The notes under the pieces are model-generated. The model saw only the letters and a program-made list of their open reading frames with translations. It made no database searches and was not told where the DNA came from. From the NCBI GenBank assembly GCA_964496095.1, contig CAZBWU010000005.1, forward strand, positions 19,704-83,703: a stretch of DNA of 64,000 nt, given 5' to 3'. The DNA is from an uncultured Gammaproteobacteria bacterium. GTDB lineage: Bacteria > Patescibacteriota > Patescibacteriia > Magasanikbacterales > GWA2-37-8. Of this stretch, positions 4,149-55,171 are shown in pieces (the first letter of the stretch is position 1; each line of letters starts with the position of its first letter). Both the position numbers and the translations under genes were made by a program.

Positions 4149-4993
4149 TCCTTCGTTATTTTAACTAGCCTGTCTAGTCCCGCCAAGTCTTTTTTTATTT
4201 CTATTTTTGCACCAGGTAATATTTGTGCAATTAAGTTTGAGATGGTTTTTGTTTGGGAGGGGTCTATCTCTAAAAGAAGGAGTAGGTTGTGGGGAGGGGG
4301 TAGTAATTTTATTTGTTTTAATAATTCTTCGTATAGGGTTAGGCCTTGTTTGTTTGCTACCAGTGCATTTTTTGGTTCTTTTTGAATAGACGGTTCGTTT
4401 TGAAATTGTTGTTCGGTGATGTAGGGAAGATTGGCACTTATAATAAGCTGATTAGCTTGCAGGTTGTAGTTTTTTAGAATTGGTTCAAGTAAATTGCCTT
4501 GTAAAAAATTTATTTTTACCTCATGTGTTTTTGCATTTTTTTTGGCTACTTGTAGAGCTGGTTTAGATATATCAATCGCAAAAGTTTGGGTAGGTTCTTT
4601 TATATTTTTCAAAATTGAAATTGGAATACAGCCACTGCCTGTGCCAACGTCAATTAAAATATTCTTTTCGTTTTTTGTTTTTAATTCGTTATTCAAAATG
4701 CTTACAACTTCTTCTACCATCATTTCTGTTTCTGGGCGGGGGATTAAGACTTTTTTATTCACAAAAAAATCAAGGCCATAGAATTCTTTGTGGCCAATAA
4801 TAACAGCGACAGAGTAGCCTTTTTTTCGCAGATAAATAAAGTATGCTAAAGAGATCTTTTCTAAAAAAGATAGACTGTATTCTGGATGTATAAGTATGAA
4901 GTTCTTTGGTTTGTGAATGCTTTTGGCAAGGAGAAGTTCTAGGTCTAAGTTGTCTAGAGAGCTATATTTTTTTTGTAATTCACGAATGGTCAT
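4145..4993 (-). CDS. prmC: release-factor glutamine N5-methyltransferase PrmC/HemK
   Basis: EFYGLDFFVNKKVLIPRPETE, VGTGSGCI (SAM motif I), NLPY (NPPY-like). Lies immediately downstream of prfA on the - strand. Confidence 0.85.
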   Translation of the reverse strand: MTIRELQKKYSSLDNLDLELLLAKSIHKPKNFILIHPEYSLSFLEKISLAYFIYLRKKGYSVAVIIGHKEFYGLDFFVNKKVLIPRPETEMMVEEVVSILNNELKTKNEKNILIDVGTGSGCIPISILKNIKEPTQTFAIDISKPALQVAKKNAKTHEVKINFLQGNLLEPILKNYNLQANQLIISANLPYITEQQFQNEPSIQKEPKNALVANKQGLTLYEELLKQIKLLPPPHNLLLLLEIDPSQTKTISNLIAQILPGAKIEIKKDLAGLDRLVKITKD

Positions 4994-24681: not shown

Positions 24682-24857
24682 GAATTTTGACTTGTTCTGT
24701 TAGACAGCTAAAAAATCTGAATAACAGCCTATATTAGCAGTATTTTAAAGGTTTGTCAAATATAGATAGGCAGCCATTTAAAGATGATATTTTCGTCTAA
24801 AAACTCGAACGCCCCGGCTTGTGGCCGGGGCTTCGAGCGTTGTCGTTGCCCCTTCAA

Positions 24858-25283
24858 CTACGGCGGCGGGGATGACCACAGGTCATCCCCAGTTATCGGG
24901 TCCTTCTCCCCGCTCGGGAAGTAGAGGATCTTGCCTGACTTCTCCTCCCGACCACGCCTGGAAGGGAGGGGGCGGAAGATTTCTTGCCGCCCGTGGAGCC
25001 ACTTGCCCGACGGGCAAAGTAGCCCAACGGCAGGACCATTGCAGTTCCCCCGTCGGCTTGTGTCCTCCTTCCCGTCAGGCCCGACCCACTCGCTTCTGCA
25101 GTTGCAGTAGCAGGTGGAGGGCGGGCCGCAGGGCGGCGACAGTACCGGCTCGTGGTCGCGGTGCTTGAAGACGACGATCTCGGTGGGGTTGGCAAGGGCC
25201 TTCTCCTTCGTGGTGTGGCAGTCGTGGACCACCACGCCGACAGTCAGAAGAATAGCCCCGACGATGGCGATGATTTCTTTCAT
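24858..25283 (-). CDS. small Cys-rich protein with an N-terminal signal anchor, encoded in a GC-rich island
   Basis: Only frame in the island with an ATG, a hydrophobic N-terminus (MKEIIAIVGAILLTVGVVV) and a downstream hairpin terminator (GCCCCGGCTTGTGGCCGGGGC at 24808-24832). Frame choice is uncertain because high GC yields long ORFs in several frames. Confidence 0.35.
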   Translation of the reverse strand: MKEIIAIVGAILLTVGVVVHDCHTTKEKALANPTEIVVFKHRDHEPVLSPPCGPPSTCYCNCRSEWVGPDGKEDTSRRGNCNGPAVGLLCPSGKWLHGRQEIFRPLPSRRGREEKSGKILYFPSGEKDPITGDDLWSSPPP

Positions 25284-25664
25284 TGTATCTAGCCTTCCCG
25301 CCTATTGGTGGAGGTGTGAGACACCAACAGGCGTATCAAAAATCGTTAAAATTTCTAATACGCATGTTGATGTCTTTCGCTACCTTTTAACAACGCTCTT
25401 TTGAAATGGGTATCTGCCTATTATATTAGGCTTATTACCACTTTCTCAATCGCCTATATGCCGTAAGCATAAAGACGATTGTTAAAAACAGTAAAATTTG
25501 TTAGTTAATTCAAGACTTTATCATCTTATACGGGATTTGTCAATCTTCTCCTTTTCTGTTATTATTTATCTAAATCTATAACATTTATAGGGGCCTTGCC
25601 CATATAATCTCATTTGCTCGAAAATGTCTCGACAAGTCAGACATTTTACTCACTCATTTCGATT

Positions 25665-36257: not shown

Positions 36258-36911
36258 ATGAAACCGCAGGGAAAGGTAAAAATAAAATGGTCGCCAGAGT
36301 TCGCATATGCAATAGGGTTAATTACATCGGATGGTAGTTTATCAAAAGACGGCAGGCATATATCATTTGTTTCAAAAGATATAGAAATGATAAAAAATTT
36401 TCAGAGAAGCTTGGATTTTTCATGTAAAGTTGGTAAAAAATCGAGCGGTTCAAATAAGAATAAAATTTACAAATTTGTTCAGATAGGCGATGTAAGTTTT
36501 TATAATTTTCTTATTTCAATAGGTTTAATGCCTAATAAAAGCAAGGTAGTAGGAAGTGTCAAAGTTCCAAAAAAATATTTTTTTCATTTTTTAAGAGGTT
36601 GTTTTGATGGAGACGGGAGTTTTTATTCTTATTATGATAAACGATGGAAGTCTAGTTTAATGTTTTATGTAAGCCTTGCCTCAGCAAGTAAAACACATAT
36701 TTTGTGGTTAAGGGCCGAAATTTTAAAGAGATTAAAAATTAAAGGGCATATAGCAAAGAGCTTGCAAAGTTCTGCTTATCAGCTAAGATATGCAAAACAA
36801 GAGTCCCTTAAATTATTGTCTAGTTTATATTTAGATGATACAGTTAGCCTGTCTAGAAAGAAGTTAAAAATACTGAAAGTTATAAAAAGTAAAAAAGCGC
36901 GGGTGGTGTAA
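36258..36911 (+). CDS. LAGLIDADG-family homing endonuclease (two-motif, single-chain type), free-standing
   Basis: Two LAGLIDADG motifs about 100 aa apart: YAIGLITSDGSL and FLRGCFDGDGSF. The last 15 nt overlap the 5' end of tRNA-Leu. Confidence 0.8.
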   Translation: MKPQGKVKIKWSPEFAYAIGLITSDGSLSKDGRHISFVSKDIEMIKNFQRSLDFSCKVGKKSSGSNKNKIYKFVQIGDVSFYNFLISIGLMPNKSKVVGSVKVPKKYFFHFLRGCFDGDGSFYSYYDKRWKSSLMFYVSLASASKTHILWLRAEILKRLKIKGHIAKSLQSSAYQLRYAKQESLKLLSSLYLDDTVSLSRKKLKILKVIKSKKARVV

Positions 36912-53073: not shown

Positions 53074-53088
53074 TTGACCATTATCATT

Positions 53089-53260
53089 TGTCATCCTGAG
53101 TGGGGTTAACACCCCCGAAGGATCTCTGTCTGTTTTGTTCGTTGTCATTCCGAACGAAGGAGTTTTTACGACGGAGTGGAGGAATCCCTTAAACTTGGTT
53201 TTTGCAATTATGATGTGTAAGGGATCCTTCGACTCCGCTACGGCTCCGCTCAGGATGACA
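53089..53260. repeat. MITE-like repeat, composite copy F: left half of a B-type copy (53089-53130) joined head-to-head to a full inverted E-type copy (53144-53260)
   Basis: TGTCATCCTGAGTGGGGTTAACACCCCCGAAGGATCTCTGTC, then TGTCATTCCGAACGAAGG...GGAGGAATCCCTTAAAC...GTAAGGGATCC...CTCAGGATGACA. Confidence 0.7.
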
Positions 53261-53900
53261 GAAAAAAATCCACCCCCACCTCAGTAAAGAGATGGGGGTG
53301 GTTTAATTTTATTGGAGGAAAGAAACTTCCCTCCTGAACCGCACCCAAGAAGATGTATTAAAGATGAAAACGAGCCGAAGCCTGTTTGTCCCTCTAACAC
53401 ATCTCCATGCTTGTCGTGGATACGGGATGATACATGTTAGTCTTACTAGTAACTCTATCATGCACTACCCGTTTCCAGACTTGCTAATGTGCGCTTGTGT
53501 CTAATTATTAAAGTATTGTATTTTTGCCTCGTAGTAGTACCGTTTTAGGGGTTCATAACTCTTGTGGCGACTTTGCTTTTTAGACAACTGCGAATTATAC
53601 TATAAATTAATAAATTTGTCAAGGGTATGGAGGGGATAAGACCATTTTTTTGGCTAATTTAAGCGGAAATAGTACTAAAGAATATTATTGACAAAGCTTA
53701 ATTTTTATGACATACTCTGTTATTCGATAATTAAGCGAATAAATAGCTCTTTAAAATTCGATATGGTTCTTCGGTGCGAATAGAGCTTCGTTTATCATTT
53801 GAATATGGTAGTAGGAGTTCTATTCGCACTATAATTACAATCTCTCCTCGGGTATGCCGAAGAGGGATCTCACCCGAATTGAAAAACTGGAGGAGGTCGT

Positions 53901-54224
53901 ATGAGCAACAAGGAAGGGCCGCCTAAAGGGTGGAAAGAGGGTGTCTTCGAGCAAATCGATGCCGAGGAGGAAGATGATGCGCTGGATCGATGGGACAGAG
54001 GCCTGCCGCTTACAGCAGCACAAGAGGCCATTGTCCAGCGGTATAGGACTATGGTGCACAGGATGAGAAGTCTCCCCCCTGTGGAACCGCCTGTTGGATG
54101 GGAGGCGCGCGCTCGCGCCCGGTTCCGCAACGCTCGTGCCCGCGAGCGCCGCCGCATGCTGGCCGTGTGCGCTGTTCTCGTCTTCATCGCCGTTGCGGCG
54201 GCATTCGTGGTGGTCGGCCGTTAG
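53901..54224 (+). CDS. small tail-anchored membrane protein encoded in a GC-rich island
   Basis: GGAGGAGG Shine-Dalgarno 4 nt upstream. Acidic N-terminal domain, an RARARFRNARARERRR basic stretch, then C-terminal TM MLAVCAVLVFIAVAAAFVVVG. GC-rich codon usage unlike neighbouring genes. Confidence 0.4.
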   Translation: MSNKEGPPKGWKEGVFEQIDAEEEDDALDRWDRGLPLTAAQEAIVQRYRTMVHRMRSLPPVEPPVGWEARARARFRNARARERRRMLAVCAVLVFIAVAAAFVVVGR

Positions 54225-54377
54225 ATCGTCGTCACGACGGGAATCGGAGAATCATGTCCACGCTGGGCCACCACGGTCGTGAGATCGAGCTGGCCTGCGT
54301 CCGAAGAGGCGTTGCACTTGCTCAGTGCGCGCCTCACTCCGAATATTTTTTGTACTTTGTAAAAAAGATTGAGGAAT

Positions 54378-54410
54378 AAAAAACTATCCTTCTGTGGATA
54401 GTTTTTTATT
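54378..54410. terminator. bidirectional rho-independent terminator between the GC island and clpP
   Basis: AAAAAACTATCC-TTCTGT-GGATAGTTTTTT. Confidence 0.6.
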
Positions 54411-54423
54411 TTGTAGTTTGTTT

Positions 54424-55023
54424 TTATTTTTCAATCACCTTATCAATCAATCCGTAAGCCAAAGCTTCCTCGGCGCTCATAAAGTTGTCTCTATCAGTAT
54501 CTTTTTCTACCTGCTCAAGCTTTTTGCCAGAATGTTTGGACATTATTTTATTTAAATTATCTTTTATTTTTAAGATTCTTTCCGCGCGGATTTTAATATC
54601 ACTCGCTTGTCCTTCCATTCCACCCATTACTTGGTGGATCATAATTTCGGCATTAGGCAAAGCAAAACGTTTTCCTTTAGCGCCGGCATTAAGTAGAAAC
54701 GCGCCCATGCTAGCAGCCATACCAATACAAATAGTACTGACATCTGGTTTGATATATTGCATGGTGTCATATATTGCCATACCAGCAGTTACTGATCCGC
54801 CAGGGGAGTTGATGTACAACTTGATATCTTTTTCTGGGTTTTGGTTTTCCAAGAATAACAATTGGGCGATAATAACATTGGCGACATTATCATCTACTTG
54901 TGTACCCAAAAATATAATTCGATCTTGGAGTAAGCGAGAATAAATATCATAAGCGCGTTCACCGAAGGTAGTTTTTTCGATGACGGTTGGGATGAGGTAT
55001 TGGGATTTGATTTCTTCTTTCAT
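54424..55023 (-). CDS. clpP: ATP-dependent Clp protease proteolytic subunit
   Basis: [15 protein letters not shown]. Catalytic Ser in GMAASMG. His in MIHQ. 199 aa. Confidence 0.9.
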
Positions 55024-55060
55024 ATTGTTATTATTAAGAATTTAGAATATAGGTTACAAC

Positions 55061-55171
55061 TGTCATTCTGAACACCCTAAAGGGTATAAACTCCGTGAAG
55101 AATATTTCCGTTAGCAAAACTTTTTCTCGGAAAGATCCCTTGTCGCCCTTGAGGGCTCGCTCAGGATGACA
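55061..55171. repeat. MITE-like palindromic repeat, copy G (D-type subfamily, oriented toward clpP on the - strand)
   Basis: CTGTCATTCTGAACACCCTAAAGGG...GGGCTCGCTCAGGATGACA. Lies in the clpP 5' region, 38 nt from the start codon. Confidence 0.65.

What the first reader, a model, noticed from the sequence alone, without database searches (positions are those of the whole stretch)
53835..54345. GC-rich island 2: a foreign-looking mini-cassette encoding a tail-anchored basic protein
About 500 bp whose GC content is far above the flanks, with a strong GGAGGAGG SD and an ORF (53901-54224) using GC-rich codons. The protein has an acidic N-terminal domain, an Arg-rich stretch and a C-terminal TM anchor, a topology reminiscent of membrane-anchored anti-sigma or regulator proteins. 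The cassette ends at a bidirectional terminator (54378-54410). The composition suggests recent acquisition from a high-GC donor. Actinobacteria are documented hosts of episymbiotic Saccharibacteria, so host-to-symbiont transfer is a possibility, but this is inference. A misassembly chimera is the null hypothesis.
Basis: partly seen in the sequence, partly recalled or inferred. Interest (0 to 1): 0.6.

Follow-up and report, generated by a model that had tools for sequence, protein, structure and literature searches.

The report
Borrowed anti-sigma gene fragment, strain-variable
A roughly 726-base insert, present in some strains of a tiny-genome Magasanikbacteria-like bacterium and absent in others, carries the front half of a membrane anti-sigma-factor gene taken from a GC-rich bacterium; it is real horizontally acquired DNA and not an assembly error, but it is most likely an orphan remnant and not a working regulator.

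Summary
The GC-rich island is real: up to 0.69 GC in 200-nt windows against a window mean of 0.39, which is 5.1 sd. ORF107 (53901-54224) is a true homologue (E 1e-13, 55% identity) of the N-terminal domain plus TM helix of about 220-aa membrane proteins. All four looked-up homologues sit directly downstream of an ECF sigma gene, on contigs of 66-74% GC. ORF107 therefore looks like an anti-sigma factor cut off one residue after its TM helix, with no sigma gene beside it.

Near-identical strains (95-98% nt identity) show an empty site. The unit is a 726-bp module (53675-54400) with its own AT-rich promoter and its own terminator, and it replaced the native clpP terminator.

A more distant relative (L006) has a different GC-rich ORF at the same spot. 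That ORF is weakly homologous to the C-terminal half of the same anti-sigma family. It is followed by a 100-nt 3' element that is 91% identical to the window's; clpP coding DNA is only 81% identical.

The host genome is Magasanikbacteria-like, not Saccharibacteria. The donor taxon is undetermined. Misassembly is effectively excluded.

Best reading: an orphan remnant of foreign DNA in a recombination hotspot that spread laterally among CPR lineages. This is moderately interesting and belongs to a known kind.

The parts
53675..54400 (.). Strain-variable accessory module of about 726 bp. It replaces 27 nt, including the native clpP terminator, that are found at the empty site.
   Evidence: Logan contigs L040 and L041 come from other runs, encode an identical ClpP protein, and are 95-98% nt identical to the flanks. 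They run from window 55090..54401 straight to 53674..53262. The empty site is homologous to that of L003.
53688..53716 (+). Sigma-70-like promoter inside the module: TTGACA-17-CATACT with a TG extension.
   Evidence: L006 has an equivalent site, TTGACA-16-TATACT with TG, at 4786-4813. This is a consensus match only.
53774..53829 (+). 25-bp imperfect hairpin in the AT-rich 5' leader.
   Evidence: Inverted repeat I3. The leader 53717-53910 folds with z = -5.8, and the SD is partly paired in the MFE structure. The L002 contig starts at 53829.
53835..54345 (+).
53889..53896 (+). GGAGGAGG Shine-Dalgarno-like motif. It is atypical for this genome.
   Evidence: Sequence. Native genes lack SD motifs.
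53901..54224 (+). ORF107, a truncated anti-sigma-like protein. Aa 20-66 form the helical cytoplasmic domain, aa 70-85 are Arg-rich (nt 54108-54155), aa 86-106 form the TM helix (nt 54156-54218), and the stop comes one residue later.
   Evidence: phmmer gives E 1.1e-13 and 55% identity to P0002, with aa 21-104 aligned to 12-96 of 229. See alignment A4. The AF2 model has pLDDT 88 with helices 21-32, 39-57 and 67-106. The gene was called in two other assemblies.
54245..54343 (+). Conserved GC-rich 3' element. The predicted fold is a closing stem (CGGAG/CUCCG) around two hairpins.
   Evidence: It is 91% identical to L006 5440-5538, while clpP coding DNA is 81% identical. RNAfold gives z = -4.3 and -3.8 with the same fold in both sequences. 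Six of 9 substitutions fall in unpaired columns, 2 are wobble-compatible and 1 breaks a pair, P = 0.037. There is no compensatory double change.
54254..54379 (+). Conserved 41-aa ORF that overlaps the 3' element and is preceded by GGAG. Its coding status is doubtful.
   Evidence: It is open in both the window and L006. Codon changes are 2 synonymous and 7 non-synonymous. No homologue was found.
54375..54410 (.). The module's own bidirectional intrinsic terminator. It now also ends clpP.
   Evidence: The arms are shared with L006. It differs from the native terminator at the empty site.
53262..53592 (-). Left neighbour (context only): a conserved ncRNA-like gene whose promoter abuts the module.
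   Evidence: No Rfam match.
54424..55023 (-). Right neighbour (context only): clpP.

Best explanation
The island is the GC-rich core of a 726-bp accessory module (53675-54400). The module sits in a variable intergenic hotspot between a conserved ncRNA gene and clpP in a Magasanikbacteria-like (CPR) genome. Its core descends from an ECF sigma/anti-sigma locus of a high-GC bacterium. ORF107 keeps the cytoplasmic, presumed sigma-binding, helical domain, the Arg-rich juxtamembrane stretch and the TM helix of the anti-sigma factor. It ends one residue after the TM, so the whole extracytoplasmic domain is missing. No cognate ECF sigma gene lies beside it. If the module's own promoter (53688-53716) drives transcription through to the module's terminator (54375-54410), the product would be an N-in, tail-anchored, sensor-less anti-sigma stub with nothing obvious to bind. 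I therefore read it as an orphan, dispensable remnant of acquired DNA and not as a working regulator. The history has two steps. An older transfer moved the DNA from a high-GC donor into some CPR lineage. More recently the module spread between Magasanikbacteria lineages by recombination at this hotspot, overwriting the native clpP terminator. Shown: the composition, the homology, the truncation point, the empty site, and the shared right end. Inferred: the anti-sigma function of the family (from gene context), the lack of function here, the direction and order of the transfers, and the recombination mechanism.
For: Homology: an exhaustive phmmer search against 1.84 billion representative proteins found 29 hits. 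The best was P0002 (E 1.1e-13, 55% identity), and ORF107 aa 20-104 always match the first ~100 residues of proteins 213-245 aa long. Context: P0002, P0003, P0014 and P0018 each start 5 nt after, or 4 nt inside, the end of a Sigma70_r2/r4_2 gene and lie next to CHAT-domain genes. Their contigs are 66.4-73.5% GC. All family members have GARP 0.33-0.53 and FYMINK 0.04-0.18, against about 0.2 and 0.3 for native proteins. Truncation: ORF107 stops at the conserved post-TM Arg in alignment A4. No sigma-like sequence appears anywhere in the 64-kb window by tblastn. Dispensability and recent gain: L040 and L041 (same ClpP protein, 95-98% nt identity) lack 53675-54400 and keep a native terminator that is homologous to L003's. 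L003, L005, L007, L011 and L016 also lack any island. Lateral spread: L006 (VanW 66% aa, clpP 81% nt) carries a different GC-rich ORF at the same spot. It shares the last ~150 nt of the module at 91-100% identity, including a 42-nt identical run and the terminator arms. L006 ORF151 is colinearly, though weakly, homologous to the TM plus C-terminal domain of the same anti-sigma family: hhalign P 0.006, HMM score above all 2000 shuffles, and phmmer E 2.4e-4 against the second anti-sigma gene of donor contig L025. Foreign translation signal: SD motifs are not used by native genes. GC3 is 0.67, against 0.76-0.93 in the homologues and 0.31 in native genes, which fits partial amelioration.
Against: The ORF is intact, with a start codon, an SD-like motif, a plausible promoter and a terminator, so expression and function cannot be excluded. 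All available copies of ORF107 are 100% identical, so no test for selection is possible. I could search only 64 kb of the genome for a partner sigma. The anti-sigma function of the family rests on gene context and architecture. No curated model reaches its threshold, and no solved anti-sigma domain was recovered by sequence or fold search. The homology of L006 ORF151 is weak. The 91% conservation of the 3' element, higher than that of clpP coding DNA, is not what a decaying remnant predicts, unless the modules share a younger ancestor than their host genomes do.
Confidence: 0.55

Rival explanations
1. ORF107 is a functional, domesticated regulator. In this reading it is a constitutive, sensor-less tail-anchored anti-sigma that sequesters a sigma-70-family factor at the membrane, either one of the CPR cell itself or, more speculatively, one of a partner cell.
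For: The ORF is intact, with a promoter-like site and a terminator. All conserved positions of the family's N-terminal domain are retained: D32, E42, Y48, P63, G66, W67, R70, R74. The helical model is confident, with pLDDT 88. The cut lies exactly after the TM, leaving a clean tail-anchored topology.
Against: There is no sigma gene next to it or anywhere in the 64-kb window. It is absent from near-identical strains and from the closest species. The genome does not use SD-led initiation, and the SD is partly paired in the predicted leader structure. The related module in L006 kept the opposite half of the protein, which argues that neither half is specifically retained.
Confidence: 0.15
2. The selected part of the module is RNA. 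In this reading the conserved 100-nt GC-rich 3' element, with the AU hairpin and terminator, is a structured sRNA or 3'-UTR element transcribed from the module's promoter. The anti-sigma ORF fragments are passenger or spacer DNA.
For: The element is 91% identical between lineages whose clpP coding DNA is 81% identical, while the 5' halves of the two modules are unalignable. Folding z-scores are -4.3 and -3.8, with the same architecture predicted independently in both sequences. Substitutions avoid paired positions, P = 0.037. C54272U together with C54290G turns a C.C mismatch into a U.G pair. No reading frame shows an excess of synonymous changes.
Against: Only two sequences exist. There is no compensatory double substitution, no Rfam family, and no further copy in 312 kb of related or donor DNA by covariance-model search. 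GC-rich foreign DNA folds stably in any case. The high identity could simply reflect a young common ancestor of the two modules' right ends.
Confidence: 0.15
3. This is the first reader's version: a recent, direct transfer from an actinobacterial host into an episymbiotic Saccharibacterium.
For: The composition and codon usage are foreign. The homologues occur only on high-GC contigs. Weak sub-threshold hits go to actinobacterial-type NCBIfam families such as SepX/GlpR, SCO2400 and PRK13920.
Against: The host genome is Magasanikbacteria-like. The module includes an AT-rich promoter and a right end shared with another CPR lineage, so the last donor was probably a CPR genome. GC3 is already well below the donor range. 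The donor taxon could not be assigned: there were no plasmid hits and the tblastn result for neighbouring genes was uninformative. The ECF/CHAT/CBASS context recalls Myxococcus DdvS/DdvA as much as it recalls Actinobacteria (PMC11506125).
Confidence: 0.05
4. The island is an assembly chimera that joins high-GC reads to a CPR contig.
For: One contig, L002, begins exactly at the left edge, window 53829. All island-bearing contigs are 100% identical and may come from related samples.
Against: L001 spans both junctions. L006, a MAG from another study and another species, has the same junction from the GC-rich element through the AT tail and terminator into clpP, and has its own AT-to-GC left junction. 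The break in L002 coincides with the end of a 25-bp hairpin.
Confidence: 0.02

Closest known systems
Single-pass membrane anti-sigma factors of ECF sigma factors (class I anti-sigma domain, e.g. RsiW, RslA, RseA; DdvA of Myxococcus xanthus, PMC11506125)
   Same: The topology is N-in with a small helical cytoplasmic domain, a positively charged juxtamembrane stretch and one TM helix. The homologues of ORF107 are encoded directly after an ECF sigma gene, often overlapping it by 4 nt, and lie next to CHAT-domain genes. In one case CBASS genes are also adjacent, a theme described for DdvS/DdvA.
   Different: ORF107 has no cognate sigma beside it and no extracytoplasmic domain. It has no HxxxCxxC zinc motif. 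No curated anti-sigma model reaches its threshold. Fold search recovers no solved anti-sigma domain. DdvA is far larger, has a fused TPR-CHAT domain, and shows no sequence similarity.
The uncharacterised ~215-245-aa sigma-adjacent membrane protein family found here (P0002, P0003, P0005 and others; metagenome-only, 'hypothetical protein')
   Same: Homology over the whole N-terminal domain and TM is significant (E 1e-13 to 1e-4, 29 hits), and the conserved residues are retained.
   Different: ORF107 lacks the ~120-aa C-terminal domain with the LRVY...CPGxxxC...YRV motif, has a 20-aa N-terminal extension, sits in a 39% GC genome, and has no sigma or CHAT neighbours.
Small horizontally acquired genomic islets and strain-variable intergenic hotspots
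   Same: The composition is atypical. The island is present or absent among near-identical strains, and homologues occur only in distant taxa. The same intergenic spot holds other small accessory genes in relatives L008, L009 and L010.
   Different: No integrase, transposase, tRNA/tmRNA target or target-site duplication was found. The module replaces 27 nt of native DNA instead of being inserted cleanly.
Integron gene cassettes (ORF plus attC)
   Same: In two genomes, different ORFs are followed immediately by the same ~100-nt structured element and are expressed from an upstream promoter.
   Different: No integrase is nearby. The neighbours are HSP20, VanW, clpP, a DHH-family gene and SMC. 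The element folds as two hairpins in a closing stem, not as a single attC bulged hairpin. There is only one cassette per site. The two ORFs appear to be halves of one gene family, not unrelated cargo.

Membership tests
ECF anti-sigma factor (class I ASD / ZAS) | Match to a curated anti-sigma model above its threshold | tested here: not met
   Pfam gave no anti-sigma family. NCBIfam NF010501 scored 18.7 bits against a cutoff of 225, and NF052375 scored 12.4 against a cutoff of 100. The best family member, P0006, reached 27 bits.
ECF anti-sigma factor (class I ASD / ZAS) | HxxxCxxC zinc-binding motif (ZAS subclass only) | tested here: not met
   The ORF107 sequence has one His (aa 53) and one Cys (aa 90, in the TM) and no such motif. 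The second anti-sigma gene of the donor arrays does have the motif.
ECF anti-sigma factor (class I ASD / ZAS) | N-in single-pass topology with a small helical cytoplasmic domain | tested here: met
   An Arg-rich stretch (aa 70-85) precedes the hydrophobic helix (aa 86-106). The AF2 model has helices at 21-32, 39-57 and 67-106 with pLDDT 88.
ECF anti-sigma factor (class I ASD / ZAS) | Gene adjacent to, and co-transcribed with, its ECF sigma gene | tested here: not met
   For ORF107 the neighbours are an ncRNA-like gene and clpP, and no sigma-like sequence appears in the 64 kb. The feature is met for 4 of 4 homologues examined.
ECF anti-sigma factor (class I ASD / ZAS) | Fold similarity to solved anti-sigma domains | tested here: inconclusive
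ECF anti-sigma factor (class I ASD / ZAS) | Binds the sigma2 and sigma4 domains of a partner sigma | not testable with these tools
   This needs a complex prediction or a binding assay.
P0002-like sigma-adjacent membrane protein family | Significant sequence homology over the N-terminal domain and TM | tested here: met
   E is 1.1e-13 in a search of 1.84 billion representative proteins, 29 hits have E <= 1e-3, and the alignment is colinear.
P0002-like sigma-adjacent membrane protein family | C-terminal ~120-aa extracytoplasmic domain (LRVY..CPGxxxC..YRV) | tested here: not met
   ORF107 stops one residue after the TM. tblastn of family members finds no C-terminal-domain match downstream.
Integron gene cassette | IntI integrase and attI next to the array | tested here: not met
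   Genes within about 10 kb were identified as PBP, Mur ligase, Fpg, a methyltransferase, HSP20, VanW, clpP, a DHH-family gene and SMC.
Integron gene cassette | attC: a single imperfect hairpin with R''/L''-L'/R' core sites | tested here: not met
   The predicted fold is a closing stem around two hairpins. I made no systematic search for attC core sites.
Horizontally acquired genomic islet | Atypical composition, absence from close relatives, homologues in distant taxa | tested here: met
   composition; absence; homologues on high-GC contigs only.
Horizontally acquired genomic islet | Mobility gene, tRNA/tmRNA target or target-site duplication | tested here: not met
   The nearest tRNA is at 36897. 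No tmRNA or Rfam family is present. The module is a replacement without a clean duplication.
Assembly chimera | Junctions not supported by independent data | tested here: not met
   L001 spans both junctions. L006 shares the right junction independently. No read-level check was possible.

The most novel reading that the evidence does not exclude
The promoter, the conserved structured 3' element and the terminator together form a transferable expression cassette ('landing pad') at the ncRNA-clpP hotspot of Magasanikbacteria. In this reading the cassette repeatedly captures and expresses fragments of membrane-protein genes from a high-GC partner organism. The captured ECF anti-sigma fragments would then point to the still unknown host lineage of these episymbionts, and the 3' element would be a new functional RNA or recombination site.
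Probability: 0.08. Interest if true: 0.7.

Novelty: new member of a known kind. Interest (0 to 1): 0.4.

Why it matters
Hosts of Magasanikbacteria and of most non-Saccharibacteria CPR lineages are unknown. A clean, recent, strain-variable piece of DNA whose only relatives are on 66-74% GC contigs is a concrete lead to a donor, and possibly to a host, once the anti-sigma family is placed taxonomically. The locus also gives base-pair resolution of how accessory DNA enters a minimal CPR genome: by replacement at an intergenic hotspot, with no mobility gene, and bringing its own promoter and terminator. It further exposes an unannotated family of ECF-sigma-associated membrane proteins linked to CHAT and CBASS genes. 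Otherwise it is an ordinary case of horizontal acquisition followed by decay.

Tried and rejected
- Known structured RNA in or near the island: Rfam at gathering threshold and at E <= 10 found nothing credible.
- DNA similarity of the island to plasmids and phages: only chance matches of 23-40 nt.
- Word-indexed protein search with ORF107: found only itself. The same search with L006 ORF151 and with the translated 3' element found nothing.
- Curated protein libraries: Pfam, NCBIfam and PADLOC gave no above-threshold family for ORF107, family members, ORF151 or island-1 ORF141.
- Remnant of a sigma gene upstream of ORF107, or any sigma gene in the window: none found.
- 3' element as the 5' end of a following ECF sigma gene: the HHGR..C.R resemblance to the L024 sigma N-terminus scores only 3.8 bits. 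I treat this as an unproven lead.
- 3' element as a remnant of the family's C-terminal domain: no match.
- 41-aa ORF as a conserved small protein: 2 synonymous against 7 non-synonymous codon changes, so there is no support.
- More copies of the 3' element: exact-pattern scans of viral contigs gave only chance 17-mers. A covariance model over 312 kb of related and donor loci found only the two known copies.
- More island-bearing relatives: a VanW-based metagenome scan gave 8 loci, none with an island.
- Donor taxonomy through plasmid tblastn of family and neighbouring proteins: no hit or uninformative hits.
- Repeat family or MITE for the module's 5' part: no other copy.
Full report
OBSERVATION. 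The island exists as described. GC in 200-nt windows climbs from 0.30-0.38 to 0.50-0.69 between 53800 and 54299 and drops to 0.31-0.37 afterwards. In 50-nt windows it reaches 0.82. Against the whole window (mean 0.387, sd 0.059) the peak lies 5.1 sd out. ORF 53901-54224 (107 aa) is preceded by GGAGGAGG. Its GC by codon position is 0.72/0.49/0.67, against about 0.48/0.33/0.31 for native genes. Its Leu, Arg, Glu and Val codon choices follow those of its high-GC homologues. The terminator at 54375-54410 has perfect 15-nt arms flanked by A and T runs.

WHOSE GENOME. The gene order HSP20 - VanW-domain protein - gap - clpP(-) - DHH(-) - SMC recurs in a dozen species-representative genomes. Those with meaningful titles are Candidatus Magasanikbacteria, Magasanikiibacteriota, Parcubacteria or Patescibacteria MAGs. 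The host is therefore a CPR bacterium of that group and not a Saccharibacterium. Some TPA MAG titles say 'uncultured Gammaproteobacteria', which conflicts with their synteny and identity to the Magasanikbacteria MAGs.

WHAT ORF107 IS. The word-indexed search found only ORF107 itself. An exhaustive phmmer search of 1.84 billion representatives found 29 relatives. The best, P0002, scores E 1.1e-13 at 55% identity. In every case ORF107 aa 20-104 align with the first ~100 residues of proteins that are mostly 213-245 aa long. Alignment A4 shows a conserved LDRLDxGxP...EEA..RAPYERL....R.L....PP.GWE.RA motif, an Arg run and a TM helix. A ~120-aa C-terminal domain (LRVY..CPGxxxC..YRV) follows, and ORF107 lacks it. 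ORF107 stops at the conserved Arg just after the TM.

I looked up four family members. Each lies 5 nt after, or 4 nt inside, the end of a Sigma70_r2/r4_2 gene and next to a CHAT-domain gene. One is also followed by SMODS and SAVED-CHAT (CBASS) genes. Two sit in tandem sigma/anti-sigma arrays. Those contigs are 66-74% GC. All 29 relatives have a GC-rich-type amino-acid composition. Architecture plus context therefore mark the family as membrane anti-sigma factors of ECF sigmas. This is an inference. No curated model reaches its threshold, and no solved anti-sigma domain was recovered. The nearest published theme is DdvS/DdvA of Myxococcus (PMC11506125), but DdvA is a much larger ZAS/TPR-CHAT protein with no detectable sequence similarity. 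The AF2 model of ORF107 is confident (pLDDT 88) and shows two short helices plus one long helix that runs into the TM.

THE REAL UNIT AND ITS HISTORY. The exact ClpP protein of the window also occurs on two Logan contigs from other sequencing runs, L040 and L041. They are 95-98% identical to the window's flanks. They pass from clpP (window 54401) to the ncRNA promoter region (window 53674) with only 27 nt in between. Those 27 nt form a native terminator homologous to that of the next-closest species, L003.

The empty site is therefore the ancestral state for this clade. The window strain gained a 726-bp module (53675-54400) that overwrote the native terminator. No clean target-site duplication or mobility gene is visible.

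The module is not all GC-rich. Its first 160 nt are AT-rich and contain a TTGACA-17-CATACT(TG) promoter-like site and a 25-bp hairpin. Its last 55 nt are AT-rich and carry its own terminator. Other relatives (L005, L007, L011, L016) have a short gap with no island. L008, L009 and L010 hold other small genes at this spot, so it is a hotspot.

THE L006 PARALLEL. L006 is more distant, with VanW 66% aa and clpP 81% nt identity to the window. At the same position it has a promoter-like site (TTGACA-16-TATACT, TG), a structured AT-rich leader, a 58-62% GC region with a different ORF (151 aa, lipoprotein-like N-terminus), and then a right end that matches the window. Window 54245-54344 is 91% identical to L006, a following 42-nt run is 100% identical, and the terminator arms are identical. 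The 5' parts are unalignable.

ORF151 is colinearly, though weakly, related to the TM plus C-terminal domain of the same anti-sigma family. hhalign gives P 0.006. An HMM score of 7.9 bits exceeds all 2000 shuffles. phmmer gives E 2.4e-4, and blastp gives 25% identity over 130 aa, against the second anti-sigma of donor contig L025.

Two CPR lineages thus carry complementary halves of anti-sigma genes of the same family in front of the same 3' end. The simplest account is one older acquisition of a sigma/anti-sigma segment, followed by different internal deletions and lateral spread of the module between lineages. Spread is indicated because the shared end is more similar than clpP coding DNA, and because much closer relatives lack the module. 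This part is inference.

THE 3' ELEMENT. Both copies fold independently into the same shape, a CGGAG/CUCCG closing stem around two hairpins, with z-scores of -4.3 and -3.8. I scored the nine substitutions against the window-only MFE structure. Six fall in unpaired columns, two are C-to-U changes opposite G, and one breaks a pair (P = 0.037). There is no compensatory double change and no statistical power with only two sequences. The overlapping 41-aa ORF shows 2 synonymous against 7 non-synonymous changes and has no homologue. No further copy was found. The element may be a functional RNA, or it may simply be young shared DNA. I cannot decide between these.

IS IT EXPRESSED OR FUNCTIONAL? Native genes here lack SD motifs: 4 of 54 long ORFs carry one, which is below the background rate. 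The GGAGGAGG is therefore imported baggage and not evidence of native translation, and it is partly paired in the predicted leader. No sigma-like gene lies in the 64 kb. The module is dispensable at strain level. I therefore favour an orphan remnant (0.55) over a domesticated sensor-less anti-sigma (0.15) or an RNA-centred module (0.15).

MISASSEMBLY. One contig spans both junctions. The independent L006 MAG reproduces the right junction and the general architecture. The L002 contig break at 53829 coincides with a long hairpin. Chimerism is very unlikely (0.02), though I could not inspect reads.

VERDICT. The anti-sigma and foreign-origin ideas are supported and sharpened. The Saccharibacteria/Actinobacteria framing is not supported. 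This is a new member of a known kind: an HGT-derived gene fragment in a strain-variable hotspot. It leaves two loose ends worth following, the donor taxonomy as a clue to the host and the conserved 3' element.

Noticed in passing
window 53262-53592 (- strand); promoter 53622..53594, terminator 53301..53270: A conserved ncRNA-like gene of about 320 nt lies next to the module. It has a perfect TTGACA-17-TATAAT promoter and an intrinsic terminator. A ~130-nt core (53296-53426) is 74-94% identical in all Magasanikbacteria-like loci and forms a long conserved hairpin. It matches no Rfam family at E <= 10.
   Followed up: partly
window 53075-53269: A MITE-like element with nested inverted repeats of the GTCATCCTGAGCG...GAAGGATC type lies between the VanW gene and the ncRNA terminator. 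A 77% identical copy sits at a different place in L003 (8970-9066).
   Followed up: no
window 24745-25357 (ORF 24858-25283, - strand): A second GC-rich island (up to 0.68 GC) encodes a 141-aa protein with an N-terminal TM or signal helix and many cysteines. It ends at a GC-rich hairpin. It has no Pfam or PADLOC match and no similarity to island 2 or to the donor contigs.
   Followed up: partly
whole window: Native genes essentially lack Shine-Dalgarno motifs. Only 4 of 54 ORFs of 150 aa or more have a 4-mer SD-like motif at -20..-4, against a 9.7% background. This lineage therefore probably uses SD-independent initiation.
   Followed up: partly
L008 8290-8650; L009 8660-8800; L010 7846-10088: The same intergenic spot between the ncRNA promoter and clpP holds other small accessory genes in other Magasanikbacteria-like genomes. 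L008 has a ~95-aa ORF with its own promoter and SD. L009 has a ~50-aa TM peptide on the minus strand. L010 has a 2.2-kb insert. The spot is a general hotspot.
   Followed up: no
L015, L024, L025, L026/L027 (donor-type contigs): An unannotated family of ~220-aa membrane proteins always follows an ECF sigma gene and neighbours a CHAT-domain protein. In L024 the pair is followed by SMODS and SAVED-CHAT (CBASS) genes. L015 and L025 have tandem arrays of sigma1, anti-sigma1, sigma2 and a ZAS-type anti-sigma2 that shares the same C-terminal domain. This looks like a defence-linked ECF module related in theme to DdvS/DdvA.
   Followed up: partly
L002 (GCA_013565595.1 contig JACCDK011422310.1) = window 53829-54746: This 918-bp contig begins exactly at the end of the 25-bp hairpin at 53774-53829, the left edge of the GC-rich core. 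The break is probably an assembly break caused by the hairpin.
   Followed up: no
L003, L004, L006, L008 record titles: TPA MAG records titled 'uncultured Gammaproteobacteria bacterium' share synteny and 56-87% VanW identity with Magasanikbacteria/Patescibacteria MAGs. The taxonomic labels look wrong.
   Followed up: no
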